From positions 2,864,170-2,928,169 of the forward strand of contig OZ244990.1 of the NCBI GenBank assembly GCA_965223205.1: 64,000 nucleotides of DNA. The letters are read 5' to 3'. The first letter of the stretch is position 1, and each line of letters starts with the position of its first letter. The stretch is from Candidatus Eiseniibacteriota bacterium (GTDB lineage Bacteria > Eisenbacteria > RBG-16-71-46 > CAVPCR01 > CBDCWB01). Under the pieces are notes generated by a model that worked only from the letters and a program-made list of their open reading frames with translations, ran no database searches and was not told the origin of the DNA. The position numbers were made by a program, and so were the translations under genes. Shown here piece after piece: positions 27,509-41,232 of the stretch.

Positions 27509-28696
27509 ATGTCCCTACGACCTGAGCCTATCCCGAGCCGCGCTCATGTGGTCGCCCCAGATGTGAAGGCGGCCGAGCCGGTGTTTGCCGACTACTGCTA
27601 TGGCGTTGCTCGGCGCGCGCGGCGGATTCTGGCGATGGCGGCGCTCGCCGGCGTGGCAGCGGCCGTCTTTGCGTTGTTGCACCCCAGTTGGTATGCCGCG
27701 CGTTGCACCTTCCTGCCATCCCGGGGCGAAAGCCGTGGGCCGAACGTCACCATGTTGTTGAATCGGGTGCTGGGTGGCGGTGCCGGCCTGACTGACGCCG
27801 TCCAAGCGGGTGACCTCACCGTCGTCATCATGCGCAGCGAGTATGTGCGCCAGCAACTAGTCGAAGAGTTCGACCTGGTCGAGCGCTACGAGGCCAAAAC
27901 GGCGCGCGGCGCCGCAGCCCAGCTCCTCGACCGCATGCGCTTCTTCGTCGGCCAAGAGGGCCTGGTGACGGTCTGGGTCGAAGACCGTGATCCAGAACTA
28001 GCTGCCCAGTTGGCCAACCGCACGGTCGCACTGTTGGATCGTTTCAACGCCGAGCGGCGCATGACCGATGGGCGGCGTACGCGGTTGTTTGTGGAGCGCG
28101 AGCTGGCCAAGGTGTCGGCCAACCTGGCGGCAGCCGAAGACTCGTTGCAGACCTATGTGGCGGCGGCCAAGAGCGTGCCGATGGCCTTCGACTCTGAGGC
28201 GATGGCGGCGCAGAGCCTGCTCATCAGCCGCAGGATGGAGCTGGAGATTCAACTCGACATGGAGCGCGAGGTGAAGTCCGATCGCGCCGAGTCGGTGCGC
28301 CTCCTGCAGTCCGAGCTCGACAAGATCAACGAGGCGCTCGGTGAATTGCCAGAAGTGAGTCTCGAGTACGCCAGGCTGCTGCGCGAGGTCAGCGTTCAAG
28401 AGAATCTCTACGAACTTTTGCGGGCCAACTACGAAGAGGCCAAGGTCCGCGAAGCCGAGGACACCCAGTCGATTAGTGTGGTCGACCAGGCCCAGCCGCC
28501 TACCGTGCGCTCCCGACCGCGCCGTAAGCTAATGGTGGCATCGGCTGCCGGAGCCGCCGGGTTTCTCGCTTTGCTGTGGGCGTTGATTGCCACCTACTTC
28601 GAGCTGCTGCCGCCGGGGAGTCGCCACCAGCGCCTGTTCGCCGCCACAGGTCACGAGTTGCGTCGCCTGCTGCGTTGGCCGAGGCGGGCCGACTGA
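27509..28696 (+). CDS. Polysaccharide co-polymerase (Wzz/GumC-like chain-length determinant)
   Basis: Two TM helices (MAALAGVAAAVFALL and AAGAAGFLALLWALIATYF) flanking a long coiled-coil periplasmic region. Stop overlaps the serS ATG. Confidence 0.65.
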   Translation: MSLRPEPIPSRAHVVAPDVKAAEPVFADYCYGVARRARRILAMAALAGVAAAVFALLHPSWYAARCTFLPSRGESRGPNVTMLLNRVLGGGAGLTDAVQAGDLTVVIMRSEYVRQQLVEEFDLVERYEAKTARGAAAQLLDRMRFFVGQEGLVTVWVEDRDPELAAQLANRTVALLDRFNAERRMTDGRRTRLFVERELAKVSANLAAAEDSLQTYVAAAKSVPMAFDSEAMAAQSLLISRRMELEIQLDMEREVKSDRAESVRLLQSELDKINEALGELPEVSLEYARLLREVSVQENLYELLRANYEEAKVREAEDTQSISVVDQAQPPTVRSRPRRKLMVASAAGAAGFLALLWALIATYFELLPPGSRHQRLFAATGHELRRLLRWPRRAD

Positions 28697-29994
28697 TGCT
28701 CGACCTGCGGGCTTTGCGAGCCGACCCCGATGGCTGGCGCGGTGATCTGGAGCGCAAGGGCGGGCGAGACGCGGCCGAGCGCTTGGATCGGATTCTTAGC
28801 GCCGATGAACGGCGCCGGCAGCTCTTGGTCGAAGTCGAGGCGTTGAAGCGCCAGCGAAACGAGACCTCCAAAGAAATTGGTCGCCGGCGCGCTCTGGGCG
28901 ACGGCGCCGCGCCAGAGATGGCGGCGATGAAGGAAGTGGCAGCGTCGATCAAGGCGCTCGATCAAGAACTCAAAGGTGTCGAACTCGAGGTCCAGGACGA
29001 ACTGGCCTGGTTGCCCAACCGCCCCCACCCGGAGGTGCCGGATGGGACCGACGACAGCGCCAACGTCGTGTGCTCGACGAAGGGCGCGCCCCCGAAGTTT
29101 GACTTCGAGCCGCGCAATCACCTGGAGCTGGGGGCAACCCTCGACATGTTCGACTTCGAGGCGGCGGCGGCCCTGTCGGGGGCTGGCTTTGCCGTTTTTC
29201 GAGGCGCCGGGGCGCGCCTGGTGCGCGGGCTCATTCAGTGGATGATCGATCTCCACGTCGGCCAGCACGGTTACACCGAGGTGTGGACGCCGGCGGTCGT
29301 GCGCGAACACGCCTTGTTTGGCACCGGGCAACTGCCCAAGCTCAAAGAGGACATGTACGAGCTGAGCCGCGACGAGGGGTTCTTGATCCCCACCGCTGAG
29401 GTGACCATCACCGGCCTGGCGGCCGATCGGACCTATCCTGAGGCTGATCTGACCACCAAGCTGGTGGGCTACACGCCGTGTTTCCGCCGCGAGGCCGGTG
29501 CTGCCGGCCGCCTAACGCGCGGGCTCCTGCGACTTCACCAGTTCGACAAGGTGGAGCTGGTGCGGATCGCTCACCCCGAGCGTTCCTGGGACGACCACGC
29601 CGAACTGTTGGGCGAGGTCGCCGCTGTGTTGGATCAGCTGGGCTTGCACTACCGCACGACCGAGTTGTGCACGGGCGACTTGAGCTTTGCTGCGGCTCGT
29701 TGTTTCGACCTGGAGGTCTGGGCGCCGGGCGAGAGGCGTTGGCTCGAGGTGTCCTCCTGCTCGAACTATCTCGACTTTCAGGCGCGGCGTTTGGGCACCC
29801 GTATGGCTCCAGCCGATGGCGGCAAGTCGGTCCTCGCCCATACCCTGAACGCCTCGGGGCTGGCCTTGCCCCGTCTGATCGTCGCCCTCTTGGAGACCTA
29901 TCAAACAGCGAGTGGCGCGGTGACCTTGCCCGAAGTGTTGCGCCCCTACATGGCCGGGCTGGACCAACTCCAACCACGCGTCGGCGCCGTCTGA
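28696..29994 (+). CDS. serS: Seryl-tRNA synthetase
   Basis: N-terminal coiled-coil arm (MLDLRALRADPD...), class II aaRS motifs (GYTPCFRREAG; TTELCTGDLSFAAARCFDLEVWAP). The ORF-track start at 28576 is an in-frame extension. Confidence 0.92.
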   Translation: MLDLRALRADPDGWRGDLERKGGRDAAERLDRILSADERRRQLLVEVEALKRQRNETSKEIGRRRALGDGAAPEMAAMKEVAASIKALDQELKGVELEVQDELAWLPNRPHPEVPDGTDDSANVVCSTKGAPPKFDFEPRNHLELGATLDMFDFEAAAALSGAGFAVFRGAGARLVRGLIQWMIDLHVGQHGYTEVWTPAVVREHALFGTGQLPKLKEDMYELSRDEGFLIPTAEVTITGLAADRTYPEADLTTKLVGYTPCFRREAGAAGRLTRGLLRLHQFDKVELVRIAHPERSWDDHAELLGEVAAVLDQLGLHYRTTELCTGDLSFAAARCFDLEVWAPGERRWLEVSSCSNYLDFQARRLGTRMAPADGGKSVLAHTLNASGLALPRLIVALLETYQTASGAVTLPEVLRPYMAGLDQLQPRVGAV

Positions 29995-30003
29995 GACTGA
30001 CGG

Positions 30004-31275
30004 ATGGCGTCGCCGTCCACGACCGCCCAGCACGCGACGCCGCCCTGGCTGCGCGGCTACGTATTCGTCGGTGCCGGGCTCCTGGTTGCCGGCTTGTTTC
30101 TCTACACCCATAACGTGGCGCTGCGGCTCGAGCGGCAGGCAAGAACTTCGACGCGGGTGCTAGCCGACTTCTTCGCCACCGTCACCCTGCAGGCGATTGA
30201 GTCAGAGCCGGTGCACCGCGTGTTCCGTGACGTGCTGGATCGGGTGGATTTTCCGGTGGTGGTGACCGATGCCGAGGGCCGCCCCATCGCCTGGCGGCGG
30301 GTCGACGTCGACCCCAACGCTGTCTCGGTCCAAGAGCAGATGGCCTTCGACCCCACGAGCCCGCCGGTCGACGGACCGCTGGCCGAGTTGCACGGGGTGA
30401 TTCAGGCAATGGACAGCGAGAACCCGCCGGTGCCGATGATCCACCCGCAGTTGCAACGCAAGATGGGCGAGGTGCACTTCGGGGAGTCGCGCCTGGTGCG
30501 GGAACTGCGGTGGGTGCCGGTGGTGGAACTGTTCGCCTTTTTTCTTTTCATTGCTCTGGGCTACTTGGGCTTCCGCAGCGCCCGCGTCGCCGAGCAACGT
30601 TACATCTGGGTGGGCATGGCCAAGGAGACCGCTCACCAGTTGGGGACGCCGACCTCCTCGCTGCTCGGCTGGCTCGAGATGCTCCGCTTGCGCGGCGACA
30701 GTGGCGCCGCCGCTGGAACCGTCAGCCTGGAACGGCGGTTCTTCGAGGAGACCGTCGCCGAAATGTCCTCGGACATCGACCGGTTGGGCAAGGTGGCGGC
30801 GCGCTTTTCACAAGTCGGATCGACGCCGCAAAAGAAACTTCAACCGCTAACGCCAGTCGTCGAAGCAACAGTGCGGTACGTTCGCCGCCGGGCCGGCGCC
30901 GGCACCGAGATTCGGGAGCGCTATGCTCAATCACCGCCGGTCGCAATCAACGCCCAACTCATCGAGTGGGTGATCGAAAACGTTCTAAAAAACGCGCTGG
31001 ACGCCAGCTCTGGCGGCGGCCAGATTCTCGTCGAGGTGTTCCCGCACTTGGACGGGGAGGCAATCGAAGTCGACATCTCTGATCAGGGGGCTGGCATGGA
31101 CGCCGCCCAGCAGCGCCGGGCCTTCGCCCCGGGTTTCTCCACCAAACAGCGCGGCTGGGGACTCGGGCTGTCGCTTGCGAAGCGCATCATCGAGGAATAT
31201 CATGGCGGGCGCATTTGGATAAAGCGCAGCCGCTTGGGGGAAGGCACGACTATCGCCATGTCGTTGCCTTGCTAG
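30004..31275 (+). CDS. Membrane sensor histidine kinase (PorY-like)
   Basis: Two TM helices around a periplasmic segment, H-box AHQLGTPTSSLLGWLEML, HATPase_c G-boxes (DQGAGMD; GWGLGLSLAKRIIEEYHG). Confidence 0.85.
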   Translation: MASPSTTAQHATPPWLRGYVFVGAGLLVAGLFLYTHNVALRLERQARTSTRVLADFFATVTLQAIESEPVHRVFRDVLDRVDFPVVVTDAEGRPIAWRRVDVDPNAVSVQEQMAFDPTSPPVDGPLAELHGVIQAMDSENPPVPMIHPQLQRKMGEVHFGESRLVRELRWVPVVELFAFFLFIALGYLGFRSARVAEQRYIWVGMAKETAHQLGTPTSSLLGWLEMLRLRGDSGAAAGTVSLERRFFEETVAEMSSDIDRLGKVAARFSQVGSTPQKKLQPLTPVVEATVRYVRRRAGAGTEIRERYAQSPPVAINAQLIEWVIENVLKNALDASSGGGQILVEVFPHLDGEAIEVDISDQGAGMDAAQQRRAFAPGFSTKQRGWGLGLSLAKRIIEEYHGGRIWIKRSRLGEGTTIAMSLPC

Positions 31276-31287
31276 GACGGAGCCAAC

Positions 31288-32850
31288 ATGTCTGATGCAC
31301 GCGCGGTCCTCTGGGCCGACGATGAAATCGATCACCTCAGGCCCCACATTCTCTTCTTGGAGGAGCGGGGCATCCAAGTAACACCGGTCACCAACGGCGA
31401 GGACGCGGTGTCTATGTTCCATCAGCGGCGCTACGACGCCGTGCTGCTCGATGAGATGATGCCGGGCATGGGCGGCTTGGACACGCTCGAAGCCATCAAG
31501 GCCGTGAATCCTGATGTGCCGGTGGTGTTGATTACCAAGAGCGAGGAAGAGTCGCTCATGAACGACGCCATCGGCCGGCGCATCTCTGACTACCTCACCA
31601 AGCCGGTGAATCCCAGCCAGGTGTTTCTGGCGATCAAGCGGCTCCTGGAAGGCGTGGCGATCCAACAAGGGCACCTCACGCGGGACTTCGTGCAGGAATT
31701 CGCGCGGCTCCAGGCCACCGATACCGCCGCCCTCGATGCCAATGGCTGGATCGAGCTGTACGTCAAGATGACCGGTTGGGACTTGCGGCTCGAGGAAATG
31801 CGCGACGCCGGGCTAGACCAGTCGTACGCCGACCTCAAGAAGCAGTTGAACCATGTCTTCTGTCGCTACTACGAGACTCACTATCGCGATTGGATGGCGG
31901 CCAGCGGCGACCGGCCGGTGTTTTCGCCCGAGATCGTTTCAAAGTACGTGCAGCCGCATCTCTCTGCCGGCAAGCGGGTCTATCTGGTGGTGGTCGACTG
32001 CATGCGGCTGGATCAGTGGATGGCAGTGCAGCCGCTGCTGGCGCCCCTGTTCGATGTGACCAACGACTACTACTTCTCGATTGTTCCCAGTGCGACGCCG
32101 TACGCCAGAAACGCCATTTTCTCCGGCCTCTATCCGCTGGGCCTCTACCGCGACTACCCCGACTACTGGCAGGAGCGTCTGGTGGGCGAGGGGTCTAAGA
32201 ACCGATTTGAGGCCGAGCTGTTGAGCCTGCAACTCGAGCGCCTGGGGAACAAACCCCTGAGCCAGAAGTACGTCAAGATCTACAGCATGGAGGACGGTCA
32301 GGCCCTCGGCCGCCAGATCGAGAGCTTTCGGTCACTGGACGTGGTCGCCTTGGTGTTCAACTTTGTGGACATCTTTGCCCACGGGCGCAGTGAATCAGAA
32401 ATTCTGCGCGAGTTGGCCCCGGACGAGGCGGCGCTCCGCTCGGTAATGACCTCGTGGTTTGCGCACTCCACACTCCTCGAGGTGTTGCGCTCGATCGCCA
32501 GGCAACCCGACGCCGTGCTGGTCCTGACCACCGACCACGGCGCTACGATCGGCATGCGGTCGTCGCTGGTCTACGGCGACCGCACCACCTCCACCAACGT
32601 TCGCTACAAGTATGGCGACAATTTGAAGTGCGACGACAAGCAAGCGGTTCACGTCAACTCGCCCGAGGAGTTCAACCTGCCGGCAGATACGCTCAACAAG
32701 AACTACTTGCTCGCCAAAGAGGACTACTACTTCGTCTATCCCACGAACTACCACGACTACGAACGGCAGTACCGCGGTAGCATCCAGCACGGCGGCATCT
32801 CTTTGGAGGAGTTGGTGCTGCCCTGCGCCACGTTGGTGCCGCGCGCGTGA
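31288..32850 (+). CDS. Response regulator with CheY-like receiver fused to a PglZ (alkaline-phosphatase-superfamily) effector domain; PorX-like
   Basis: Receiver motifs (VLWADDE...VLLDEMMPGMGG...LTKP) followed by about 400 aa with PglZ hallmarks (VVVDCMRLDQW, PSATPYARNAIFSG, TTDHG). 12 nt downstream of the kinase gene. Confidence 0.8.
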   Translation: MSDARAVLWADDEIDHLRPHILFLEERGIQVTPVTNGEDAVSMFHQRRYDAVLLDEMMPGMGGLDTLEAIKAVNPDVPVVLITKSEEESLMNDAIGRRISDYLTKPVNPSQVFLAIKRLLEGVAIQQGHLTRDFVQEFARLQATDTAALDANGWIELYVKMTGWDLRLEEMRDAGLDQSYADLKKQLNHVFCRYYETHYRDWMAASGDRPVFSPEIVSKYVQPHLSAGKRVYLVVVDCMRLDQWMAVQPLLAPLFDVTNDYYFSIVPSATPYARNAIFSGLYPLGLYRDYPDYWQERLVGEGSKNRFEAELLSLQLERLGNKPLSQKYVKIYSMEDGQALGRQIESFRSLDVVALVFNFVDIFAHGRSESEILRELAPDEAALRSVMTSWFAHSTLLEVLRSIARQPDAVLVLTTDHGATIGMRSSLVYGDRTTSTNVRYKYGDNLKCDDKQAVHVNSPEEFNLPADTLNKNYLLAKEDYYFVYPTNYHDYERQYRGSIQHGGISLEELVLPCATLVPRA

Positions 32851-33353
32851 CCCGCACACGGCTCTGGGCGGGGCAAACGCACAGCGAGGCCGAGACCGAG
32901 GCGGCTGGCCGGCGTCTAGGTGAGCGGCTCGAGTCGCCGTGCGTATGGGTCTTGGAAGGCGATCTTGGCAGTGGTAAGAGCGTCTTGGCGCGCGGCGTGT
33001 TGCGCGGTCTCGGGGTCACCGGTGCTGTGCGCAGCCCGACGTTTACCTTGGCGATCCCATACGAGGCTCGCCTCGATGCCGTCCACATTGACCTCTACCG
33101 CCTGGAGTCGGTCGCCGCCATCCGCGCCGCCGGCCTCGATGAGTGGATGGACGGCCGCCAGGTGGCGCTCATCGAGTGGGGTGAGCGGGCGTTGCCCCTC
33201 GTGACACCGGAGGCCCTCTACACGCGTTTTGAGCATCAGGGCGGTGACGCCCGGCAGCTCGAGTTCGGAGTGCTGGGCGAAGCGGCAGCGCCCTGGCACC
33301 ACGCGCTAGGCGAAGCGATGGCGGGGATCGACGGTCGTGGTCTTAGGAATTGA
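32847..33353 (+). CDS. tsaE: tRNA threonylcarbamoyladenosine (t6A) biosynthesis ATPase TsaE
   Basis: P-loop GDLGSGKS, RSPTFTL and IDLYRL...IEWGE motifs of YjeE/TsaE. Confidence 0.85.
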   Translation: MTRTRLWAGQTHSEAETEAAGRRLGERLESPCVWVLEGDLGSGKSVLARGVLRGLGVTGAVRSPTFTLAIPYEARLDAVHIDLYRLESVAAIRAAGLDEWMDGRQVALIEWGERALPLVTPEALYTRFEHQGGDARQLEFGVLGEAAAPWHHALGEAMAGIDGRGLRN

Positions 33354-34053
33354 CACCTCTACCAGTCAGCTGGCACTCGGCCTCGTCCGAGACGGCGAGG
33401 TGGTTGCCGAGTGGCTGGTGATGGACGGGCTCAGGCACTGCGAGCGCCTGCAGAGCGGCGTTGCTACCCTGCTGGCTGACCTGGGGGCGGACGTCGGGGC
33501 ACTCACCGGAGTCGCGGTCGGCCAGGGACCGGGCTCGTTTACCGGCTTGAGGATCGGTGTGGCCGCCGCCCAGGGCTTGGCAACGGGGCGAGGGGTGCCG
33601 ATCGTTGGAGTGTCTTCGCTTGAGGCGTTAGCCCATCCGTGGCGGCGAACGCCGGGGAGTGTCGTCGCTTGCCTTGACGCGCGCCGGGGTGAGGTTTACG
33701 TTTGCGTGTATCATGCGTCGGAGTCGGGGCTTAGAGCGATTGGCCAGGAGCGGTTGGCAACGCCGGCGGATGGCCCGAGCCTCGTCGGCAGCGCCCCGCC
33801 GCCGGTGACGGTCATCGGCACCGGGGCGCCGCAGGTCGCCGCGGCCCTCGTTGAGAGCGGCATCGACGTCGTCGAACCCGGCGGGCCAGCTGATTATCCG
33901 CGCGGGGCGACGATCGCACAGCTGGGCGCCGGCCGTCTCGCGACTTCAACCCGAGGCCAAGCGCCCGTGGAACCCAACTATTGCCGGCCAAGCGATGCAG
34001 AAGGTCAGCCCAACGTGCCAACCGGTGTCGATCCGCCCCATGGCGGTCGATGA
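33337..34053 (+). CDS. tsaB: tRNA t6A biosynthesis protein TsaB (inactive Kae1/TsaD paralog)
   Basis: LGIDTSTS N-terminus and GPGSFTGLRIG motif; overlaps tsaE by 17 nt. Confidence 0.85.
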   Translation: MVLGIDTSTSQLALGLVRDGEVVAEWLVMDGLRHCERLQSGVATLLADLGADVGALTGVAVGQGPGSFTGLRIGVAAAQGLATGRGVPIVGVSSLEALAHPWRRTPGSVVACLDARRGEVYVCVYHASESGLRAIGQERLATPADGPSLVGSAPPPVTVIGTGAPQVAAALVESGIDVVEPGGPADYPRGATIAQLGAGRLATSTRGQAPVEPNYCRPSDAEGQPNVPTGVDPPHGGR

Positions 34054-34465
34054 TCTGCCGGGCGTGGTCGACCTCGAGGCCCGGGCCTTCCCTCAACCGT
34101 GGTCGCGCAAGTTCTTTGAAGCCGAACTGGCACGGCAGCACCCGCCAGGCTGGGTGTGGGTGGCAACGGCCGCCAGGGGTGGTCTGGCCGGCTACTTGGT
34201 GGCTTGGCTGATGGTGGACGAAGTGCACCTAGGGAACTTGGCGGTCGAGGAGGGTTGCCGCCGTCAAGGCGTGGCGGCCACGTTGCTCGGGTGCCTGGAG
34301 CGCGCTGCCCTGGAGCGGCGGGCAGCGGCGATCACCTTGGAGGTGCGCACGACCAACCGCGCGGCCCTTTGCCTCTACGCCCGCCATCGGTTTCGGCCGA
34401 TCGGCGTGCGGCGCGGCTACTATGGAGTGGGACGCGACGCGGTGGTCATGCTGCGCGAGCTTTGA
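34040..34465 (+). CDS. rimI: Ribosomal-protein-alanine N-acetyltransferase (GNAT)
   Basis: GNAT motif A (QGVAATLL...AAITLEVRTTNRAALCLYARHRF); conserved tsaE-tsaB-rimI gene order. Start at ATG for MAVDDLPG. Confidence 0.8.
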   Translation: MAVDDLPGVVDLEARAFPQPWSRKFFEAELARQHPPGWVWVATAARGGLAGYLVAWLMVDEVHLGNLAVEEGCRRQGVAATLLGCLERAALERRAAAITLEVRTTNRAALCLYARHRFRPIGVRRGYYGVGRDAVVMLREL

Positions 34466-34474
34466 GAGAGTCCG

Positions 34475-35467
34475 ATGTCCTGGTTCAAGAAAAAGCCCAA
34501 CTTCGGTTTTAGCATTCGCAAGCGAGAAGCCCCGGACGGGCTTTGGCTCAAGTGTGAAAACTGCAGCGAGATGCTCTACGCCCGCGAGCTGGAGCGGGCC
34601 TTGCGCGTCTGCGACAAGTGTGGCCACCACTTCAAGATCCGCTGCACCGACTATGTGACTCTCCTGGCCGACCCCGATTCCTTTGCAGAAATGTTCGCCG
34701 GGGTGGTCGCGGTCGATCCACTCAACTTTCGTGATTCCAAGCGTTACACCGATCGCCTGAAGGACTACCGTAAGCGAACCCAGCTCGAGGAGTCGGTGCT
34801 AACCGGTGCCGCCCAGCTCGCTGGGCACAGAATTGGGCTAGGCGTGATGGACTTCGCTTTCATGGGCGGCACGCTGGGCTCGGCTACCGGCGAGCGCTTG
34901 AAGCGGCTGATCGATTGGTGCACAGAGGCCCCTTGCCCCCTGGTCTTGGTGTCGACCTCGGGCGGGGCCCGCATGCAAGAGGGCATCCTGTCGCTCATGC
35001 AAATGGCCAAGACGTCCGTCGCCCTGGCGCACCTGCGTGCCGCCCGCCAGCCATTCATTTCGATTCTCTTGAATCCGACCACGGCCGGGGTGGCGGCGAG
35101 CTACGCCAGCCTTGGGGACGTCATCATCGCCGAGCCGCGGGCCCAGATTGGCTTTGCTGGACCGCGGGTGATTCAGCAGACCATCAACCAGGACTTGCCC
35201 GAGGGTTTTCAAACCGCTGAATTCGTGCTGGAACACGGCATGATCGACATGATTGTACCCCGCTCCGAAATGCGCGACACCGTCGGCAGAGTGCTGGACA
35301 TGCTCCTGGTGCCTCAACGGACGATCGAACTCGAAACCGCGGCGGTCAACGGCGACCGGCCGCCAGCCGATGCCGCCGGGACCGACGTCGCCGCCGGCGA
35401 CTCCACCGAGCCGGCGCCGTTGGGTGATGGTGAGGTGCCCCAAGCGGAGTCATCCACCCCTGAATGA
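34475..35467 (+). CDS. accD: Acetyl-CoA carboxylase carboxyltransferase beta subunit
   Basis: N-terminal zinc ribbon (CENCSEMLY...CDKCGHH) and carboxyltransferase motifs (MDFAFMGGTLGSATGE). Confidence 0.9.
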   Translation: MSWFKKKPNFGFSIRKREAPDGLWLKCENCSEMLYARELERALRVCDKCGHHFKIRCTDYVTLLADPDSFAEMFAGVVAVDPLNFRDSKRYTDRLKDYRKRTQLEESVLTGAAQLAGHRIGLGVMDFAFMGGTLGSATGERLKRLIDWCTEAPCPLVLVSTSGGARMQEGILSLMQMAKTSVALAHLRAARQPFISILLNPTTAGVAASYASLGDVIIAEPRAQIGFAGPRVIQQTINQDLPEGFQTAEFVLEHGMIDMIVPRSEMRDTVGRVLDMLLVPQRTIELETAAVNGDRPPADAAGTDVAAGDSTEPAPLGDGEVPQAESSTPE

Positions 35468-36741
35468 CCGCTGGTCGCCGCTACCTGGAAGCGCTCATGA
35501 CCAGCGAGCGCAGTGGGTTGAAGTTGGGATTGAGCCGCTTTCGGCGCGTTCTCCGAGACCTCGACCACCCCGAGCGGCGGTTCCGCACGCTGATCGTCGG
35601 CGGCACCAACGGCAAGGGGTCAGTCGCCGCCATGTTGGCGTGCATGATGAGAGCGGCTGGCTACCGGACCGGACTGTTGACCAGCCCGCATCTGTTGGGC
35701 TACCGGGAACGGATTCGCGTCGACGGTCGGGCGATCAGCCGCGCCCAAGTAGACCGCGACATGGATTATCTGTTGCCCTACGTCCAGCGTCACGGCGCTT
35801 CCTTCTTTGAGACGATGACGGGCTTGGCATTCGTGCACTTTGCTGCCGAAGGCGTCCAGGCGGCGGTGCTCGAGGTGGGGCTGGGGGGGCGCCTCGACGC
35901 TACGAACGTCACCCGGCCGCTGGTCGCGACCGTCGTCTCGGTCGGCATGGACCACACGAGGATTTTGGGATCGACGGTGGCGTCGATCGCCCGCGAAAAG
36001 GTGGCCATCGCCCGGTCCGGCCGGCCGCTGGTAGTCGGTGCCCGCGGCGTGGCCGGCGTCGAACTCGAGCGCTTGGGCCGGGCGCGCGGCGCGCGCGTCG
36101 AGCGGCTCGGCCAGGACGCCCATTTTCGCCTGACCCAGGCCGAGCCTCGACGGCTGCGCGTTGAACTCGATCGCCAGGGTCGCCGCTATGGCGCTTGGCT
36201 GAGCATGGCTGGCCGCCACCAGGGCCGCAACGCTGCCACCGCGATGTTGGCGGCGGCGGCGGCCCACGATTCCGGGCTCCCCCAACCCGAGATCGGCCGA
36301 GGGCTCGACCAGGTGGTCTGGCCGGGCCGCCTGCAGTGGATCGACTCGACCCCCCCCGTTCTCCTGGACAGTGCGCACAACGCCGCCGGGAGTCGGGTGT
36401 TGGCCGACTACCTGGCCGAATTCTTGGCTGATCGACGCATTCTTTGCGTTCTCGGTCTCTTGGCTCGGAAGCGGCTCAGGAGTTTTCTGGCGCCGCTCTT
36501 GCCGCACATCGCCGAGTGGATCGTGACCGAGCCCGCCGGCGACCGCGCCCATCCTCGTGCCGACATCGCCCGGGCACTGCCGGCCGAGGCCCGCCAGACG
36601 GACACGCCGAGCGTTGCGACGGCGTTGGAGTTGGCCCAGTGTCACGCCGGCCCGCGGGATGTCGTTTTGGTGGCAGGATCGCTCCGGGTGGTCGCCGAGG
36701 CGCTCAGGGCGCTCGGCCGGCGCCGCTTCGAGCTGATCTAG
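35464..36741 (+). CDS. folC: Bifunctional folylpolyglutamate synthase / dihydrofolate synthase
   Basis: Mur-ligase-type P-loop (VGGTNGKGSV) and EVGLGGRLDATNV motif; classic accD-folC adjacency with 4-nt overlap. Confidence 0.85.
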   Translation: MTAGRRYLEALMTSERSGLKLGLSRFRRVLRDLDHPERRFRTLIVGGTNGKGSVAAMLACMMRAAGYRTGLLTSPHLLGYRERIRVDGRAISRAQVDRDMDYLLPYVQRHGASFFETMTGLAFVHFAAEGVQAAVLEVGLGGRLDATNVTRPLVATVVSVGMDHTRILGSTVASIAREKVAIARSGRPLVVGARGVAGVELERLGRARGARVERLGQDAHFRLTQAEPRRLRVELDRQGRRYGAWLSMAGRHQGRNAATAMLAAAAAHDSGLPQPEIGRGLDQVVWPGRLQWIDSTPPVLLDSAHNAAGSRVLADYLAEFLADRRILCVLGLLARKRLRSFLAPLLPHIAEWIVTEPAGDRAHPRADIARALPAEARQTDTPSVATALELAQCHAGPRDVVLVAGSLRVVAEALRALGRRRFELI

Positions 36742-36769: not shown

Positions 36770-37744
36770 ATGGCAGAGGCTTTGGCAGTCGGCATCGATC
36801 TGGGGGGGACCCGCACCAAGCTGGCCTTGGTTGGCGCCGAGAGCGGCGTGCGCGCTCAGGGGGTCGCCGACACCCGAGTCGGGGCGGGTGCAACCACCAT
36901 CGTCGCTGGAGCGCTGGCTGCGGCGCGCCAGCTCATCGACCAGGCTGGAGTCGAGCCGCAGAGTGTGGCCGCTGTCGGCGTTGGGGTCGCCGGCTTGTTG
37001 GACTCCACCACGGGCGTGGTTGCCACGGCTCCCAACTTGGCCGACTTTGTCGGGTTGTCGATCACCGATTGTGTAGCGGTGGGGTTGGACGACGCGCTCG
37101 GCGTCCAGCGACCGATTATCGCCGACAATGACGCGACGGCTGCCGCTTTCGCTGAAGCGCGAATGGGGGCTGGGGTTGGGGCGGCGCTTCTGGTCGGCGT
37201 CACGCTCGGCACCGGCGTCGGTGGCGGGCTCGTGGTTGGGGGACAACCGCTGCGCGGTGCCCGCGGCATGGCCGGCGAGATCGGCCACATGGAACTCGTC
37301 CCCGGCGGCCGGGCGTGCGGGTGCGGGCGGCGCGGCTGCTTGGAGCCCTACGTCAACGCCCAGGCACTGACCGCCGGAGCGCTGGAGTTGGGCGAGCCAG
37401 CCGTGCGCGCGCGCTTTGGGGCGGCGGGACCCTCGGCCCGCGCCGTCGGTGAAGCGGCGGCAGTTGGAGAACCCTGGGCCACTACCGTGTTGAGTCAAGT
37501 GGGCGAGCGGTTGGGTCAGGGATTGGCGCGCGCCGTCTGCCTTTTGAACCCGGATCGCATTGTGGTGGGGGGCGGCGTCGCTCTAGCGGGGGCCCCACTG
37601 TTCGATGCCGCCCGACGGACCTTGGCGGCGGGCACCTTCGAGCCCCTGGCAACGCATGTGCAACTCGTGAGTGCCAAGCTATTGGATTCGGCCGGCGCGA
37701 TTGGCGCCGCATTGTTGGCGTTGGAGCACTCGTGCGCTGGCTGA
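36770..37744 (+). CDS. ROK-family sugar kinase (glucokinase / N-acetylglucosamine kinase-like)
   Basis: DLGGT ATP-binding motif and ROK zinc signature CGCGRRGCLE. Confidence 0.8.
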   Translation: MAEALAVGIDLGGTRTKLALVGAESGVRAQGVADTRVGAGATTIVAGALAAARQLIDQAGVEPQSVAAVGVGVAGLLDSTTGVVATAPNLADFVGLSITDCVAVGLDDALGVQRPIIADNDATAAAFAEARMGAGVGAALLVGVTLGTGVGGGLVVGGQPLRGARGMAGEIGHMELVPGGRACGCGRRGCLEPYVNAQALTAGALELGEPAVRARFGAAGPSARAVGEAAAVGEPWATTVLSQVGERLGQGLARAVCLLNPDRIVVGGGVALAGAPLFDAARRTLAAGTFEPLATHVQLVSAKLLDSAGAIGAALLALEHSCAG

Positions 37745-40700
37745 CCGCCCTGGTGGTGGCGGTGGTGATGTGGATGGCTCCGCATCCCAGCTGGAGCCAG
37801 GCGGCCGAGCCCTCCCGGGAATTCGACGGACCGACCCAGGTCGACGGCGACAAGCTTGAGCAGGTGCAAGAGGACGGGCGGCCCATCCTCTTGGTCAAGA
37901 GTGTGCGCCTGCGCCAGGGCACGACGGCGGTGACCGGTAAGGTCGGGCGTTTTGACCGACTCAACCAGTGGCTGACCATCGACGGAGATGTGCGGATTGT
38001 CGAGGGCGCCACGACCATCCGCGGCGAGCGCGCCACCTACGACCTGCGCACGCGACAGGCCACCGTCACCGGCGACGTGGAAATCGAGGAGGCCGGAGTC
38101 ACCGTTCAAGCGCCGCGCGCCCGCTACGACCGGGATACGGCGATCACCCGCCTGGGGGGTGGGGTTCGCGTCGAAGGGCTCGAGGGCGGCCGCCAGGTGG
38201 ACGCCGACAGCCTAGTGTTCGAGTCAACCACTGGCCGGGTCGAGGCCTACGGTGACGTAGTTATCGAGGACCCTGACGAGCAGGCCCTGGTGCGCGGTCA
38301 AAGGGCGGTTTATGAACGCGGCTCGGGCGACTTGGACGTTACCGACCGCGCCAGCATGCAGCTCTCCCAGCGGGGTCAACCGGTGTTGGTGACCGCCGAT
38401 AGCCTCTGCTTTCTGCGGCAATCAGACGTTGTCGAAGCGCGCGGCGGCGTGCGCGTGCAGCAGGGGTTGACCGAGGCGTATGCTGGCTTCGCTCGCTTTG
38501 AAGAGCGTCAAGAGCGGGCCTTCTTGACCGATTCGCCCCTCGCCCTGAGTTCCACCGGAGTGGTGCGCGGCGACACATTGCACCTCCGCATGCGCCAGGA
38601 TGCCATCGAGCAGGTGATCGCCGTCGGTGACGCTCGGGCCATCTATGAATCGGCAAAGCCGGCCGCTGGGGATGCGCCGCCGTCGCGCGACGTCATGCGT
38701 TTGGTTGGGGATACCCTATGGCTGCGGGTGGTCGACGGTGAGGCCGACGAAGTGCGCGCTGTCGGCCAGGCCGAGACCGTCTATGAGCCCACCGGCGCCG
38801 GTGGCGCCCGCCTGAATCGCGCCCGCGGGGAGCGTATCCGCTTGCTCCTGGATCGCGGCGAACCGTATCAGGCGATTGTCGAGGGGGATGCCACCGGTAC
38901 CTACTATTTCGCGGCGGCCGCCGACACGGCCGACAGTCTGGTCAGCGGTGTGCCCGGAGTCGTCGATTCGGTCACCGCGTTAGGGTCTCCAGCTCGGTTG
39001 GGTGGTACCAGGGATCAGTTTCTTGGGGCGGCAGCCGTTCCAGACTCGTCGGTCGAAGAAGTGCAGTACTCGGCGCGGCGCATGACCTACCTGGCCGAAC
39101 GCGGCGAGCTACGGCTCGAAGAGGAGGCGGTGGTCGAGTATCAGGCGTCGACCTTGCGCGCCGGCCAGATCCGTTTCCAGGCCGAGGAGCGGCTCTTGGT
39201 GGCGACCGAAAGTCCCGAACTGACCGAAGGCGCAGACGTCATCGATGGCGATCTGATGACCTACGATCTGGACACGCGGGTCGGCCAGGTGCACACCGGC
39301 GTCACCGAATTCGAGCGCGGCATCTACCGCGGCGCCAAGCTGGAACGCAGCCCCGACAACGTCTTCTACGTCGAGGACGGGGCCTACACCACGTGCGACT
39401 TGGATGAGCCGCACTACCACTTTGCCAGCCGCCAGATGAAGCTGTACCTGGGTGACAAGGCCGTCGCCAAGCCGCTGGTCCTGCATGCCGGCCGCGTCCC
39501 GATTTTGGCCCTGCCGTTCTACATGTTTCCCATCAACAAGGGCCGCCAGTCCGGCCTCTTAGTGCCGCGCATCGAGTTCGGGGTCTCGGACAGAACGGGA
39601 CGTTTCGTCCGTAATGCCGGGTACTATTGGGTGATCAACGACTACGCCGACCTCGAAGCCTTCGCTGACCTCAATGAGCATTCGCCGTTCTTCGTGGCCA
39701 ACAGCCGGTTTCGCTACCACGTCCGCTACATGATGCGCGGCGAGATATCCGCCAGCTCCAGCTTTGGCGAGGCCAACCGCGACTGGGATGTCGAGGGCGA
39801 TTGGCGGACCTTAGAGGGGTTGCCGCGCTTCAGTGCCAACATCGACTTCTTGTCGCGGCGTTCCTTCCGCCAGGACGCTCAGAGCCTGCTCGAGTCCAAC
39901 CGCCTGGACACCGAGCTGCGCACCAACCTCACCTACGAAAAGGCCTTCGAATCGGGCACCAGCCTGACGGTCTCCAGCGAGCGCGTGCAGCGCCTGCAGG
40001 ATGCTTCCGGGGCGACCCTGGCCGGCTCCGGGGTGGTGACCGGGGTGGCGCCGTCGGTGGCCCTGTCGTTTGCGCCCCGGACCCTCGGCGGGCCACCCGA
40101 CGCCAAGGGGCGCGGTGGTCGCTGGCCATGGCTAGCCTCGACGAGCTACAGCTTCCGCGCCGCCGCTCGCAACACCTATGACAGTCGCCGACCGGACTCG
40201 CGGTACCTGCGGACGGCCGATGGCTCCGCGAGCTTGAGCGACGCGCGTGCGCTCGGCTACCTGCGCCTGGTGCCGTCCGTGGGCGCCAGCGCCACGTACG
40301 TGGAGCGTACCGAGTCGCTGGTCGATGGAATCCAAGTGCCGGGTATCGGGCACGTCGTGACCGGCGGGGTCACCTACGGTTTGCAGCTCAGAACCGAGGT
40401 GTTTGGTCGCTGGCGGCCGCGGCTTGGGCCCTACCACGGTTTCCGCCACGTCATCACCCCGTCGGCCGGCTTTTCTCACACGCGGCCCTTTGACTCGCGA
40501 CGCGACCTCCTAGTGGAACCCGAGCCGTTCTCGTCTCTGTCGCTACGCCTGGGCAATCGCCTCGAGACTCGGCTTGGGGAACCGGGAGAGTTCCGCGTGC
40601 ATCGCGACTTTCTCACCTTCAACCTCACGACTAGCTACGATGTCGATGGCCGCTCCGCCCGTCGGTTTTCGGACATCAATCTAAGCGGCCGCTTCGTCCC

Positions 40701-41232
40701 TTGGACCGGTGTTCCGGGTATGAACTTTTCTCTGCGCTACGACCCCTATGAGCGCCGGAACGAGCAGTACTCCACCGATCTGCGCTTTGAGTTCACCAGG
40801 CGGCCAAAAACCACCGACTCGGAGGCCCCGGTGCTCGACTCCGAGGCCCCGGTGCTCGACTCCGAGGAGCCCGAAGAAGAAGTCGAACCTGTCGCGCAAG
40901 CTGTGTTCCCATCGCGATTTACGCTGAGTGGTTCGTTCAGCTTCGCGGGCGGAGGTGGTAGCGCCAAACATCTGCAGACCACCTCGACCATGCGCTTCAA
41001 CCTGACTCCGAAGTGGAACCTGTACTACTCAGTGACCATTGACCCACTCGAACGCTCCATCGTATCGCAGCGCTACAACATCGTCCGTGACTTGCATTGT
41101 TGGGAGGCGCGGTTTAGCCGCGCCTTTTCCGGCAACCGCTGGGAGTATTCGTTCCGGATCGCGGCGCGCGATCTACCCGACTTGTTCTACGAAAAGACCT
41201 CGGGAGTGACCCGTCAATCCAGCTTGTTCTAG
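37732..41232 (+). CDS. lptD: LPS-assembly protein LptD (OstA family), unusually large (1166 aa)
   Basis: Signal peptide, extended N-terminal region of repeated OstA/LptA-like beta-jellyroll segments, then beta-barrel region with LptD-like segment ILALPFYMFPINKGRQSGLLVPRIEFG. Assignment by motif resemblance. Confidence 0.75.
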   Translation: MRWLTALVVAVVMWMAPHPSWSQAAEPSREFDGPTQVDGDKLEQVQEDGRPILLVKSVRLRQGTTAVTGKVGRFDRLNQWLTIDGDVRIVEGATTIRGERATYDLRTRQATVTGDVEIEEAGVTVQAPRARYDRDTAITRLGGGVRVEGLEGGRQVDADSLVFESTTGRVEAYGDVVIEDPDEQALVRGQRAVYERGSGDLDVTDRASMQLSQRGQPVLVTADSLCFLRQSDVVEARGGVRVQQGLTEAYAGFARFEERQERAFLTDSPLALSSTGVVRGDTLHLRMRQDAIEQVIAVGDARAIYESAKPAAGDAPPSRDVMRLVGDTLWLRVVDGEADEVRAVGQAETVYEPTGAGGARLNRARGERIRLLLDRGEPYQAIVEGDATGTYYFAAAADTADSLVSGVPGVVDSVTALGSPARLGGTRDQFLGAAAVPDSSVEEVQYSARRMTYLAERGELRLEEEAVVEYQASTLRAGQIRFQAEERLLVATESPELTEGADVIDGDLMTYDLDTRVGQVHTGVTEFERGIYRGAKLERSPDNVFYVEDGAYTTCDLDEPHYHFASRQMKLYLGDKAVAKPLVLHAGRVPILALPFYMFPINKGRQSGLLVPRIEFGVSDRTGRFVRNAGYYWVINDYADLEAFADLNEHSPFFVANSRFRYHVRYMMRGEISASSSFGEANRDWDVEGDWRTLEGLPRFSANIDFLSRRSFRQDAQSLLESNRLDTELRTNLTYEKAFESGTSLTVSSERVQRLQDASGATLAGSGVVTGVAPSVALSFAPRTLGGPPDAKGRGGRWPWLASTSYSFRAAARNTYDSRRPDSRYLRTADGSASLSDARALGYLRLVPSVGASATYVERTESLVDGIQVPGIGHVVTGGVTYGLQLRTEVFGRWRPRLGPYHGFRHVITPSAGFSHTRPFDSRRDLLVEPEPFSSLSLRLGNRLETRLGEPGEFRVHRDFLTFNLTTSYDVDGRSARRFSDINLSGRFVPWTGVPGMNFSLRYDPYERRNEQYSTDLRFEFTRRPKTTDSEAPVLDSEAPVLDSEEPEEEVEPVAQAVFPSRFTLSGSFSFAGGGGSAKHLQTTSTMRFNLTPKWNLYYSVTIDPLERSIVSQRYNIVRDLHCWEARFSRAFSGNRWEYSFRIAARDLPDLFYEKTSGVTRQSSLF
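40816..40870 (+). repeat. In-frame 21-bp tandem direct repeat (2.6 copies) inside lptD encoding (DSEAPVL)x2-DSEE
   Basis: gactcggaggccccggtgctc / gactccgaggccccggtgctc / gactccgaggagc read directly from the sequence. Confidence 0.8.

What the first reader, a model, noticed from the sequence alone, without database searches (positions are those of the whole stretch)
30004..32850. Adjacent PorY/PorX-like two-component system with a PglZ-domain response regulator
A membrane histidine kinase is followed 12 nt later by a response regulator whose output domain is not DNA-binding but a roughly 400-aa PglZ (alkaline-phosphatase-superfamily) domain. This is the architecture of PorX, the regulator of type IX secretion in Bacteroidota, where PorX and PorY are encoded apart. 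Here the pair is adjacent and apparently co-transcribed in a high-GC genome, with no recognisable type IX secretion components in the window. PglZ is also the phosphatase-like component of BREX phage-defence systems, so the effector chemistry and target are worth testing.
Basis: partly seen in the sequence, partly recalled or inferred. Interest (0 to 1): 0.6.

Follow-up and report, generated by a model that had tools for sequence, protein, structure and literature searches.

The report
Operon-encoded PorY/PorX secretion regulator pair
This is a genuine copy of the PorY/PorX signalling pair that controls type IX protein secretion, encoded side by side in an uncultured Eisenbacteria-like bacterium, which supports the debated idea that the two proteins are true partners.

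Summary
A 423-aa two-transmembrane histidine kinase (30004-31275) lies 12 nt upstream of a 520-aa receiver+PglZ regulator (31288-32850). The regulator is a full-length PorX ortholog: NCBIfam PorX equivalog 632 bits (cutoff 300), E 3e-136 to the P. gingivalis PorX crystal structure, and every phospho-acceptor, metal-binding and nucleophile residue is conserved. The kinase is a PorY ortholog: it aligns end to end with P. gingivalis PorY (E 4e-68) and shares the KETAHQLGTP H-box. Both genes sit in a tightly packed string, serS-porY-porX-tsaE-tsaB-rimI-accD-folC. Across 82 related loci, porX-tsaE-tsaB-accD is near-universal in the FCB superphylum. porY-porX linkage is confined to one large clade (Eisenbacteria, Latescibacterota, Zixibacteria, Gemmatimonadota). 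In the sister clade (Bacteroidota and Ignavibacteriota MAGs), the type IX translocon gene sprA usually sits upstream of porX instead. Relatives in the porY-linked clade encode proteins with type IX sorting domains. The window has no type IX genes, and the rest of its genome could not be reached. It is not a BREX component. Verdict: an ordinary new member of a known system. Its gene order gives useful, apparently unreported support for PorY being PorX's cognate kinase.

The parts
28696..29994 (+). serS (seryl-tRNA synthetase), first gene of the conserved string; its ATG overlaps the stop of the upstream GNVR chain-length gene
   Evidence: TIGR00414 425.6 bits. Start at 28696. Lies directly upstream of porY in most porY-linked loci.
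30004..31275 (+). porY ortholog: two-TM sensor histidine kinase, 423 aa
   Evidence: BLASTP to P. gingivalis PorY BAG34519.1: 209 bits, E 4e-68, 33% identity over residues 21-422. Shares PorY motifs. Best non-PorY kinase in PDB scores only 54 bits. AlphaFold mean pLDDT 84.6.
30121..30507 (+). periplasmic sensor domain of PorY (residues 40-168), small mixed alpha/beta domain
   Evidence: Sensor-only HMM built from Bacteroidota PorY: 12.3 bits against at most 2.7 in 500 shuffles; 20-47 bits for the adjacent kinases of Zixibacteria, Gemmatimonadota and Latescibacterota. Secondary structure.
30634..30636 (+). codon of H211, predicted autophosphorylation site (equals H193 of P. gingivalis PorY)
   Evidence: Invariant KETAHQLGTP H-box.
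31288..32850 (+). porX ortholog: receiver + three-helix bundle + PglZ/alkaline-phosphatase-superfamily domain, 520 aa
   Evidence: NF052313 T9SS_RR_PorX 632 bits, cutoff 300, profile positions 2-513 of 513. PDB 7pv7 E 2.8e-136 and 8ted E 8e-133.
31450..31452 (+). codon of D55, receiver phospho-acceptor (equals D58 in P. gingivalis, D54 in F. johnsoniae)
   Evidence: Alignment; D11, D12, T83 and K105 are also conserved.
31933..32847 (+). PglZ phosphodiesterase domain (residues about 216-520) with T270 nucleophile and metal ligands D237, D361, H365, D416, H417, H501
   Evidence: All conserved in the window protein and in 11 orthologs from 8 phyla. Residue roles from PMC9757075.
32847..33353 (+). 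tsaE (YjeE/UbK family); its GTG overlaps the porX stop (GTGA)
   Evidence: TIGR00150 92 bits, Pfam TsaE 107 bits. Walker A, SPT, HIDLYR and EW motifs present. Directly downstream of porX in nearly all 82 loci. Same order in 81 P. gingivalis strains (PMC13241743).
33337..34053 (+). tsaB, overlapping tsaE by 17 nt
   Evidence: TIGR03725 165 bits.
34040..34465 (+). rimI-like GNAT acetyltransferase (start uncertain: 33995, 34025 or 34040)
   Evidence: tblastn with the Pfam-annotated GNAT of L003 gives E 4e-29 over 34013-34462. Same position in L001 and L003.
34475..35467 (+). accD, part of the conserved string
   Evidence: TIGR00515 364.7 bits; conserved downstream in most loci.
35464..36741 (+). 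folC, last gene of the conserved string
   Evidence: TIGR01499 304.7 bits.

Best explanation
The two genes encode the orthologs of PorY and PorX, the two-component system that switches on type IX secretion, here kept as an operonic pair inside serS-porY-porX-tsaE-tsaB-rimI-accD-folC. Proposed mechanism follows. Shown here: orthology, conserved residues and conserved gene order. Inferred from studied orthologs: all biochemical steps. PorY senses a periplasmic signal through its roughly 130-aa domain; in P. gingivalis that signal is the C-terminal sorting domain of the cargo protein PorA. PorY autophosphorylates on H211 and transfers the phosphate to D55 of PorX. Phospho-PorX dimerises. Its receiver domain then binds the cytoplasmic tail of the PorL/GldL motor and an ECF sigma factor (SigP). 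Its PglZ domain becomes an active Zn-dependent phosphodiesterase that degrades linear and cyclic oligonucleotides, with T270 as nucleophile. The translationally coupled TsaE/UbK protein is a likely second input or partner. The output is most probably control of a type IX secretion system encoded elsewhere in the genome.
For: PorX: equivalog score of 632 bits against a cutoff of 300 over the full length; 42% global identity to crystallised PorX; all catalytic, metal-binding, nucleotide-binding and dimer-interface residues conserved. PorY: end-to-end alignment with P. gingivalis PorY at E 4e-68, including both TM helices and the sensor; sensor-only HMM scores above all shuffles. Partner surfaces are the best-conserved parts of both proteins: DHp 58-61% and REC helix alpha-1 76%, against 22% for the sensor and 28% for the helical bundle. 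Gene spacing is 9 nt, 12 nt, a 4-nt overlap and a 17-nt overlap. The same serS-porY-porX-tsaE-tsaB order occurs in Gemmatimonadota and Eiseniibacteriota chromosomes and in 38 of 69 scorable loci. The linked state needs only 5 changes on the PorX tree, against 16-25 in shuffles. Link to type IX secretion: sprA (E 7e-111 to the SprA structure) lies directly upstream of porX in 22 loci of the sister clade. Eisenbacteria, Latescibacterota and Zixibacteria relatives encode proteins with type IX type-A sorting domains.
Against: No type IX core or cargo gene lies in the 64-kb window. The rest of the 4.58-Mb genome could not be examined. The sensor domain is only 12-22% identical to Bacteroidota PorY, so the ligand may differ. 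No promoter or terminator signal stands above the shuffle background, so the operon is inferred from spacing alone. Y79, the UbK1 target in P. gingivalis PorX, is D76 here. In P. gingivalis the porY and porX mutant phenotypes overlap only partly (PMC9757075, PMC11320123).
Confidence: 0.75

Rival explanations
1. It is a true PorY/PorX pair, but in this lineage it controls something other than type IX secretion. Candidates are the flanking envelope and exopolysaccharide export genes (Wza, GNVR, WecA-like, LptD-like), or a housekeeping function tied to TsaE/t6A or oligonucleotide turnover.
For: No type IX gene lies in the window, while EPS export genes sit immediately upstream and an LptD-like gene downstream. 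The pair is embedded in a string of housekeeping genes conserved across phyla. PMC11320123, as summarised in PMC12398890, suggests PorX may act in pathways not directly related to type IX secretion. TXSScan found type IX secretion only in Bacteroidetes.
Against: Close relatives carry type IX sorting-domain cargo, some right beside the cluster (L013, L033, L037, L009). sprA-porX adjacency in the sister clade ties PorX to the secretion machine. The EPS genes are not conserved neighbours in relatives beyond an epimerase/dehydratase (GDP_Man_Dehyd/Epimerase) gene and GT4.
Confidence: 0.15
2. The neighbouring kinase is not the physiological phosphodonor. PorX is instead activated by acetyl phosphate, by TsaE/UbK or by another kinase, and the adjacency is only inherited gene order.
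For: Authors of the PorX structure papers doubt PorY is the only input in P. gingivalis. UbK1 phosphorylates PorX in vitro. tsaE is linked to porX even more universally than porY is.
Against: The adjacency is kept across at least four phyla, with tight spacing in most loci. The DHp and REC contact surfaces are the most conserved regions of both proteins. PorY-PorX phosphotransfer and interaction have been reported experimentally in P. gingivalis (PMC4800418 abstract).
Confidence: 0.07
3. The PglZ protein belongs to a BREX/Pgl-type phage-defence system.
For: Weak PglZ-domain similarity: NCBIfam BREX_PglZ_3 83.6 bits; PADLOC PglZ 64 bits over the C-terminal half of the profile.
Against: The score is far below the BREX cutoff of 250. 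The protein has a receiver domain and is 520 aa, whereas BREX PglZ proteins are at least 600 aa. No PglX, BrxC, BrxL or other defence protein is in the window. The locus is conserved housekeeping synteny, not a defence island.
Confidence: 0.01

Closest known systems
PorX of Porphyromonas gingivalis (PGN_1019; PDB 7pv7, 7pva, 7pvk) and PorX of Flavobacterium johnsoniae (PDB 8ted, 8p6f)
   Same: Same length and three-part architecture (receiver, three-helix bundle, PglZ). Global identity is 42% and 40%. The phospho-acceptor, all seven metal/nucleophile residues, R274/N358 and the S385/S389 interface are identical. tsaE/ubK lies immediately downstream, as in P. gingivalis.
   Different: The gene is preceded by porY rather than being an 'orphan'. 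The UbK1 target Y79 is replaced by D76. The three-helix bundle is only 28% identical. The host is a 66% GC Eisenbacteria-like organism, not a member of the Bacteroidota.
PorY of Porphyromonas gingivalis (PGN_2001, BAG34519.1)
   Same: Two TM helices flank a periplasmic domain of about 115-130 aa. There is no HAMP or PAS linker. The H-box is KETAHQLGTPxSSL (H211 here, H193 in P. gingivalis). The RFxxxGSxP, WxxENxxxNAxDA and RGWGLGLxLxKRI motifs are shared. Identity is 33% over the full length.
   Different: Encoded 12 nt upstream of porX instead of at a distant locus. The sensor domain is only about 22% identical and carries an insertion of about 13 residues, so recognition of a PorA-type ligand is unproven.
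UbK1/TsaE of P. gingivalis (PMC13241743)
   Same: Same family (TsaE/YjeE), all four UbK motifs present, and the same position directly downstream of porX.
   Different: Here it is followed by tsaB and rimI, the classical t6A operon partners. Its reported target residue in PorX is not conserved.
BREX PglZ proteins
   Same: Distantly related PglZ/alkaline-phosphatase fold with the same metal-ligand set.
   Different: BREX PglZ proteins have no receiver domain, are longer (at least 600 aa), come with different partners and have a different genomic context. This protein scores far below the BREX family cutoffs.

Membership tests
PorX (NCBIfam NF052313, T9SS response regulator signal transducer) | Full-length match above the curated equivalog cutoff | tested here: met
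   632 bits against a cutoff of 300; protein residues 6-519 match profile positions 2-513 of 513.
PorX (NCBIfam NF052313, T9SS response regulator signal transducer) | Receiver + helical bundle + PglZ architecture, 500-530 aa | tested here: met
   520 aa; Response_reg at 7-116 and PglZ at 229-419; collinear with the crystal structures over 514 residues.
PorX (NCBIfam NF052313, T9SS response regulator signal transducer) | Receiver phospho-acceptor Asp and catalytic quintet | tested here: met
   D11, D12, D55, T83 and K105.
PorX (NCBIfam NF052313, T9SS response regulator signal transducer) | PglZ metal ligands and Thr nucleophile (D239, T272, D361, H365, D415, H416, H500 in P. gingivalis) | tested here: met
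   D237, T270, D361, H365, D416, H417 and H501 are all present.
PorX (NCBIfam NF052313, T9SS response regulator signal transducer) | Zn-dependent phosphodiesterase activity on oligoadenylates; binding to PorL/GldL and SigP | not testable with these tools
   Biochemical properties known only for the P. gingivalis and F. johnsoniae orthologs.
PorX (NCBIfam NF052313, T9SS response regulator signal transducer) | Co-occurrence with a type IX secretion system in the same genome | tested here: inconclusive
   None in the 64-kb window, and the genome is unreachable. Relatives in the same clade carry type-A sorting-domain cargo. The sister clade has sprA next to porX.
PorY sensor kinase | End-to-end homology to P. 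gingivalis PorY that exceeds similarity to other histidine kinases | tested here: met
   209 bits, E 4e-68, covering residues 21-422, against at most 54 bits for any kinase in PDB. The best NCBIfam match, AtoS at 98.9 bits, covers the C-terminal core only.
PorY sensor kinase | Topology TM1 - periplasmic domain of about 115-130 aa - TM2 running directly into DHp, with no HAMP or PAS | tested here: met
   Hydrophobic segments at about 15-38 and 167-192. The model shows a continuous helix 171-233. The P. gingivalis periplasmic region is A35-R149.
PorY sensor kinase | PorY-type H-box KETAHQ(L/I)GTPxSSL and CA-domain motifs | tested here: met
   Invariant in the window kinase, in 8 Bacteroidota PorY and in 25 family members.
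PorY sensor kinase | Homologous periplasmic sensor domain | tested here: met
   Weak but above background: 12.3 bits against at most 2.7 in 500 shuffles. Bridged by adjacent kinases of other phyla at 20-47 bits. Identity is only 12-22%.
PorY sensor kinase | Phosphotransfer to PorX; activation by a cargo C-terminal domain (PorA) | not testable with these tools
   Requires biochemistry. No PorA ortholog was searched for.
BREX PglZ | Match above the BREX PglZ family cutoff | tested here: not met
   BREX_PglZ_3 scores 83.6 bits against a cutoff of 250. PADLOC gives only partial hits.
BREX PglZ | Neighbouring BREX genes (pglX, brxC, brxL and others) | tested here: not met
   None among about 55 window genes.
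Type IX secretion system locus | Core genes (gldK/L/M/N, sprA, porV, porU, porP) or cargo with TIGR04183/PF18962 domains in the window | tested here: not met
   No hit in any Pfam or NCBIfam scan of window genes. No SprA or sorting-domain hit in six-frame ORFs of the window.

The most novel reading that the evidence does not exclude
PorX may be at root a partner of the TsaE/UbK-TsaB module rather than a dedicated secretion regulator. porX-tsaE-tsaB-(rimI)-accD is the one arrangement kept in every FCB phylum sampled, while the upstream partner is swapped (porY in one clade, sprA in the other). On this reading, PorX's oligonucleotide phosphodiesterase and TsaE's ATPase/kinase couple translation or tRNA-modification status, or nanoRNA levels, to envelope export. 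In the Eisenbacteria-like lineage the PorY-PorX-TsaE operon would then be the ancestral, complete form of this circuit.
Probability: 0.15. Interest if true: 0.7.

Novelty: new member of a known kind. Interest (0 to 1): 0.4.

Why it matters
PorX and PorY are always described as 'orphan' partners, and several structural papers question whether PorY really feeds PorX. A whole clade of FCB phyla keeps the two genes adjacent, and their contact surfaces are the best-conserved regions. This is independent comparative evidence that they are cognate. It also provides natural co-evolving pairs for specificity analysis and simpler operons for biochemistry. The universal porX-tsaE linkage extends the 2026 UbK1-PorX observation from one species to a superphylum. 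The sprA-porX linkage extends the genomic tie between PorX and the secretion machine to uncultured Bacteroidota and Ignavibacteriota lineages. None of this changes what the system is: NCBI's own HMM would already name this protein PorX.

Tried and rejected
1. Reaching the source genome failed. The look-up of encoding contigs had no record of the kinase. The listing of cluster members gave no names or accessions, only a 4,583,619-bp contig. The genome is not among the species representatives scanned; the best PorX match there is 67%.

2. Type IX core genes in this genome could not be tested. The genome scan, homolog searches and family searches are all capped and exhausted, and any Bacteroidota query would fill the 120-row list with Bacteroidota hits.

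3. The L009 C-terminal domain did not reach NCBIfam TIGR04183 and found only 3 database hits on its own. It was resolved later with a canonical sorting-domain query and a 5-sequence profile.

4. The promoter and terminator scan gave counts at shuffle level, so it says nothing about the operon.

5. A Foldseek search with the full kinase model returned only kinase cores, so the sensor fold is unassigned.

6. Rfam found nothing in the window.

7. Literature searches for type IX secretion or PorX in Eisenbacteria, Gemmatimonadota, Latescibacterota or Zixibacteria returned nothing specific. This covers only the open-access library.

8. The BREX reading is rejected.

9. The spreadsheet supplement of PMC7323717 did not give a per-genome accession table. 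Accession gaps were read from the FASTA headers instead.
Full report
OBSERVATION. A GGAG lies 8 nt before the second start codon. Both have the high third-position GC (0.81-0.83) of the real genes in this 66% GC window. Pfam gives HATPase_c for the first ORF and Response_reg plus PglZ for the second, all above the gathering cutoffs.

THE REGULATOR IS PorX. NCBIfam's equivalog model for the 'T9SS response regulator signal transducer PorX' scores 632 bits against a cutoff of 300 and covers the whole protein. The protein aligns without large gaps to the crystallised PorX of Porphyromonas gingivalis (7pv7, E 2.8e-136) and Flavobacterium johnsoniae (8ted, E 8e-133). Global identity is 42% and 40%. 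I took residue numbering and roles from the structure paper PMC9757075 and the native sequence from the PeerJ supplement. Every functional residue is present:
- Receiver: D11, D12, D55, T83, K105.
- PglZ metal ligands and nucleophile: D237, T270, D361, H365, D416, H417, H501.
- Nucleotide contacts: R274, N358.
- Dimer interface: S385, S389.

The same holds for 11 orthologs from eight phyla. The one non-conserved site is Y79, the UbK1 target in P. gingivalis, which is D76 here. The UbK1 paper itself notes that this residue is not broadly conserved.

THE KINASE IS PorY. PorY sequences came from supplement 20 of PMC7323717. BLASTP against P. gingivalis PorY gives 209 bits, E 4e-68 and 33% identity over residues 21-422. 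The alignment spans both transmembrane helices, the periplasmic domain, DHp and the catalytic domain. The best other kinase in PDB reaches 54 bits, and the best NCBIfam family (AtoS, 98.9 bits) covers only the C-terminal core. The unusual H-box KETAHQLGTPxSSL (H211 here, H193 in P. gingivalis) and three further motifs are shared with eight Bacteroidota PorY. They are invariant in 25 family members. An HMM built from the Bacteroidota sensor domains alone scores the window's sensor at 12.3 bits, against at most 2.7 in 500 shuffles. It scores the PorX-adjacent kinases of Zixibacteria, Gemmatimonadota and Latescibacterota at 20-47 bits. The sensor is therefore homologous but strongly diverged (12-22% identity). 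An AlphaFold model (mean pLDDT 84.6) shows a long TM1 helix, a small four-stranded alpha/beta periplasmic domain, and a TM2 helix that continues into the DHp helix with no HAMP or PAS.

CONTEXT. The pair lies in a tightly packed run of + strand genes:

| Gene | Coordinates |
|---|---|
| serS | 28696-29994 |
| porY | 30004-31275 |
| porX | 31288-32850 |
| tsaE | 32847-33353 |
| tsaB | 33337-34053 |
| rimI-like GNAT | about 34040-34465 |
| accD | 34475-35467 |
| folC | 35464-36741 |

The junctions from serS to tsaB are gaps of 9 and 12 nt followed by overlaps of 4 and 17 nt. The consensus promoter and terminator scan shows nothing above shuffle level inside the run, so the operon is an inference from spacing. 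The rest of the window is housekeeping: pyrimidine synthesis, EPS export, Tol-Pal, ligA and an LptD-like gene. It contains no type IX core or cargo gene. Rfam finds nothing.

COMPARATIVE GENOMICS. The kinase family's named members are Candidatus Eisenbacteria and Gemmatimonadota. In complete chromosomes of a Gemmatimonadota MAG and an Eiseniibacteriota MAG, the called genes are serS, kinase, Response_reg+PglZ, TsaE, TsaB, GNAT, AccD and FolC, in the same order. A scan of one genome per species with the window's PorX found 578 relatives. The best 80 are 46-67% identical, and the closest are Eisenbacteria MAGs. The window's own genome is not among them.

I searched six-frame ORFs of all loci with the window's seven proteins. 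TsaE, TsaB and AccD follow PorX in nearly every locus of every phylum. PorY precedes PorX in 38 loci and is absent upstream in 31; 11 loci have too little upstream sequence and 3 more are doubtful.
- porY-linked loci are Eisenbacteria, Gemmatimonadota, Latescibacterota (3 of 4), Zixibacteria (3 of 3) and unnamed MAGs.
- Unlinked loci are Bacteroidota (0 of 19), named Ignavibacteriota (0 of 9), KSB1 and Calditrichota.

On a neighbour-joining PorX tree the linked state needs 5 changes, against a mean of 24.9 and a minimum of 16 in 300 label shuffles. This amounts to one ancient difference between two large clades plus a few later losses or insertions.

In the unlinked clade, the gene directly upstream of porX on the same strand is a giant ORF, up to about 2,560 aa where complete, in 22 loci. 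The one I tested matches the F. johnsoniae SprA translocon structure at 374.6 bits, E 7e-111. The two arrangements are therefore serS-porY-porX-tsaE... and sprA-porX-tsaE....

For cultured Bacteroidota, GenBank accession numbers place PorX and PorY hundreds to thousands of genes apart in P. gingivalis W83, ATCC 33277 and TDC60 and in Psychroflexus torquis. The literature calls them orphans.

DOES THE LINEAGE HAVE TYPE IX SECRETION? This could not be tested for the window's genome. At lineage level I used a canonical sorting domain from a subtilisin-like protein in L057 (...NYPNPFNP...) as query. It finds C-terminal domains on large secreted proteins in porY-linked loci: L025 (Latescibacterota, 68.9 bits), L013 and L033 (Eisenbacteria, 34.5 and 22.2 bits), L037 and L009. 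A profile of these five retrieves 3,078 proteins. Nearly all of the top 120 carry Pfam Por_Secre_tail. The NCBI-named ones are 'T9SS type A sorting domain-containing protein', from Zixibacteria and Calditrichaeota plus a few from outside the FCB group. Two hits lie on the same 4,540,735-bp Latescibacterota chromosome as L025. Reviews say type IX secretion 'may' occur in Gemmatimonadetes and other FCB phyla, whereas TXSScan found it only in Bacteroidetes. I take it as likely, but not shown, that this organism has the system.

MECHANISM. By orthology, a periplasmic signal reaches the PorY sensor. PorY autophosphorylates at H211 and transfers the phosphate to PorX D55. PorX then dimerises. Its outputs are binding of the phosphorylated receiver to the PorL/GldL motor tail and to SigP, and Zn-dependent cleavage of linear and cyclic oligonucleotides by the PglZ domain. 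The kinase-regulator contact regions are the most conserved parts of both proteins relative to P. gingivalis: DHp 58-61% and REC helix alpha-1 76%, against sensor 22% and helical bundle 28%. This fits a conserved interface. TsaE has all four UbK motifs and is translationally coupled to porX, so a second input, as reported for UbK1, is plausible. Everything after 'by orthology' is inference.

COMPARISON AND NOVELTY. The proteins pass every sequence-level membership test for PorX and PorY. They fail those for BREX PglZ: 83.6 bits against a cutoff of 250, no partner genes, and PADLOC hits to the PglZ domain only. This is a new member of a known system, and NCBI's annotation model would already name it. 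Three points appear to be unreported in the papers I could read:
- porY-porX adjacency is the rule in a whole clade of FCB phyla.
- porX-tsaE linkage is superphylum-wide.
- sprA sits next to porX in the sister clade.

These points bear on a live question, whether PorY is PorX's cognate kinase, but they do not reveal a new kind of system.

LIMITS. Taxon labels are those of MAG depositors. L041 ('Terriglobales') and L081 ('Poribacteria') are probably misbinned. The tree is a quick distance tree. ORFs in loci were called mechanically. Only 80 of at least 578 PorX loci were examined, and they are the ones closest to the window.

Noticed in passing
L064:97-7776 (+); also L038, L042, L043, L046, L047, L050, L052, L055, L056, L058, L059, L061, L063, L066, L067, L068, L070, L071, L076, L079, L083: In 22 Bacteroidota and Ignavibacteriota MAG loci, the type IX translocon gene sprA lies immediately upstream of porX on the same strand, giving sprA-porX-tsaE-tsaB-accD. 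The ORFs reach about 2,560 aa where complete, and L064 scores 374.6 bits to PDB 6h3i. From memory, this is not the arrangement in P. gingivalis or F. johnsoniae.
   Followed up: partly
L013:2-2785, L033:2526-5585, L037:5681-7849, L009:7298-10189: Large secreted proteins ending in type IX type-A sorting domains are encoded right beside the porY-porX-tsaE cluster in several Eisenbacteria-like loci. In L037 the gene lies between porY and porX, and in L013 it is directly upstream of porX. This recalls PorA, whose sorting domain is the PorY ligand in P. gingivalis. Four of about 25 loci is not clearly more than chance.
   Followed up: partly
L006:5183-7843, L007:5156-7932, L009:1140-3830 (minus strand); L014:6291-7868: A subclade of Eisenbacteria has 1-4 kb inserted between porY and porX. 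In L006, L007 and L009 the insert is an opposite-strand pair, a DUF4097 'toastrack' protein and a Peptidase_M28. In L014 it is a Cache-HAMP methyl-accepting chemotaxis protein. The adjacency is therefore loosened in some lineages.
   Followed up: partly
window 6276-7652 (-) and 7664-9046 (-): Two tandem paralogous proteins of about 460 aa carry a Peptidase_S74 'chaperone of endosialidase' domain near the C-terminus and nothing else recognisable. They sit between a glycosyltransferase and the pyrimidine operon.
   Followed up: no
window 47316-49340 (+) and 50624-51811 (+): Two long high-GC3 ORFs (up to 674 aa and 395 aa) have no Pfam, NCBIfam or PADLOC match. The first overlaps the end of the SBP_bac_5 gene, so its true start is probably later.
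   Followed up: no
window 37732-41232 (+): A 1,166-aa outer-membrane protein combines LptC/LptA/LptD_N-like N-terminal domains with an LptD_2 barrel. Similar very large ORFs follow folC in Eisenbacteria relatives (for example L019:12409-16968).
   Followed up: no
L041 (labelled Terriglobales), L081 (labelled Poribacteria), L032 and L035 (labelled uncultured Ignavibacteria): These contigs carry the FCB-type PorX cluster. L041, L032 and L035 have the porY-linked arrangement typical of Zixibacteria and Latescibacterota, which suggests misbinning or mislabelling rather than true occurrence in those taxa.
   Followed up: no
window 28694-28698: The serS ATG overlaps the TGA of the upstream GNVR chain-length-determinant gene (ATGA-type overlap). 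The tight packing therefore extends upstream into the EPS export genes.
   Followed up: no
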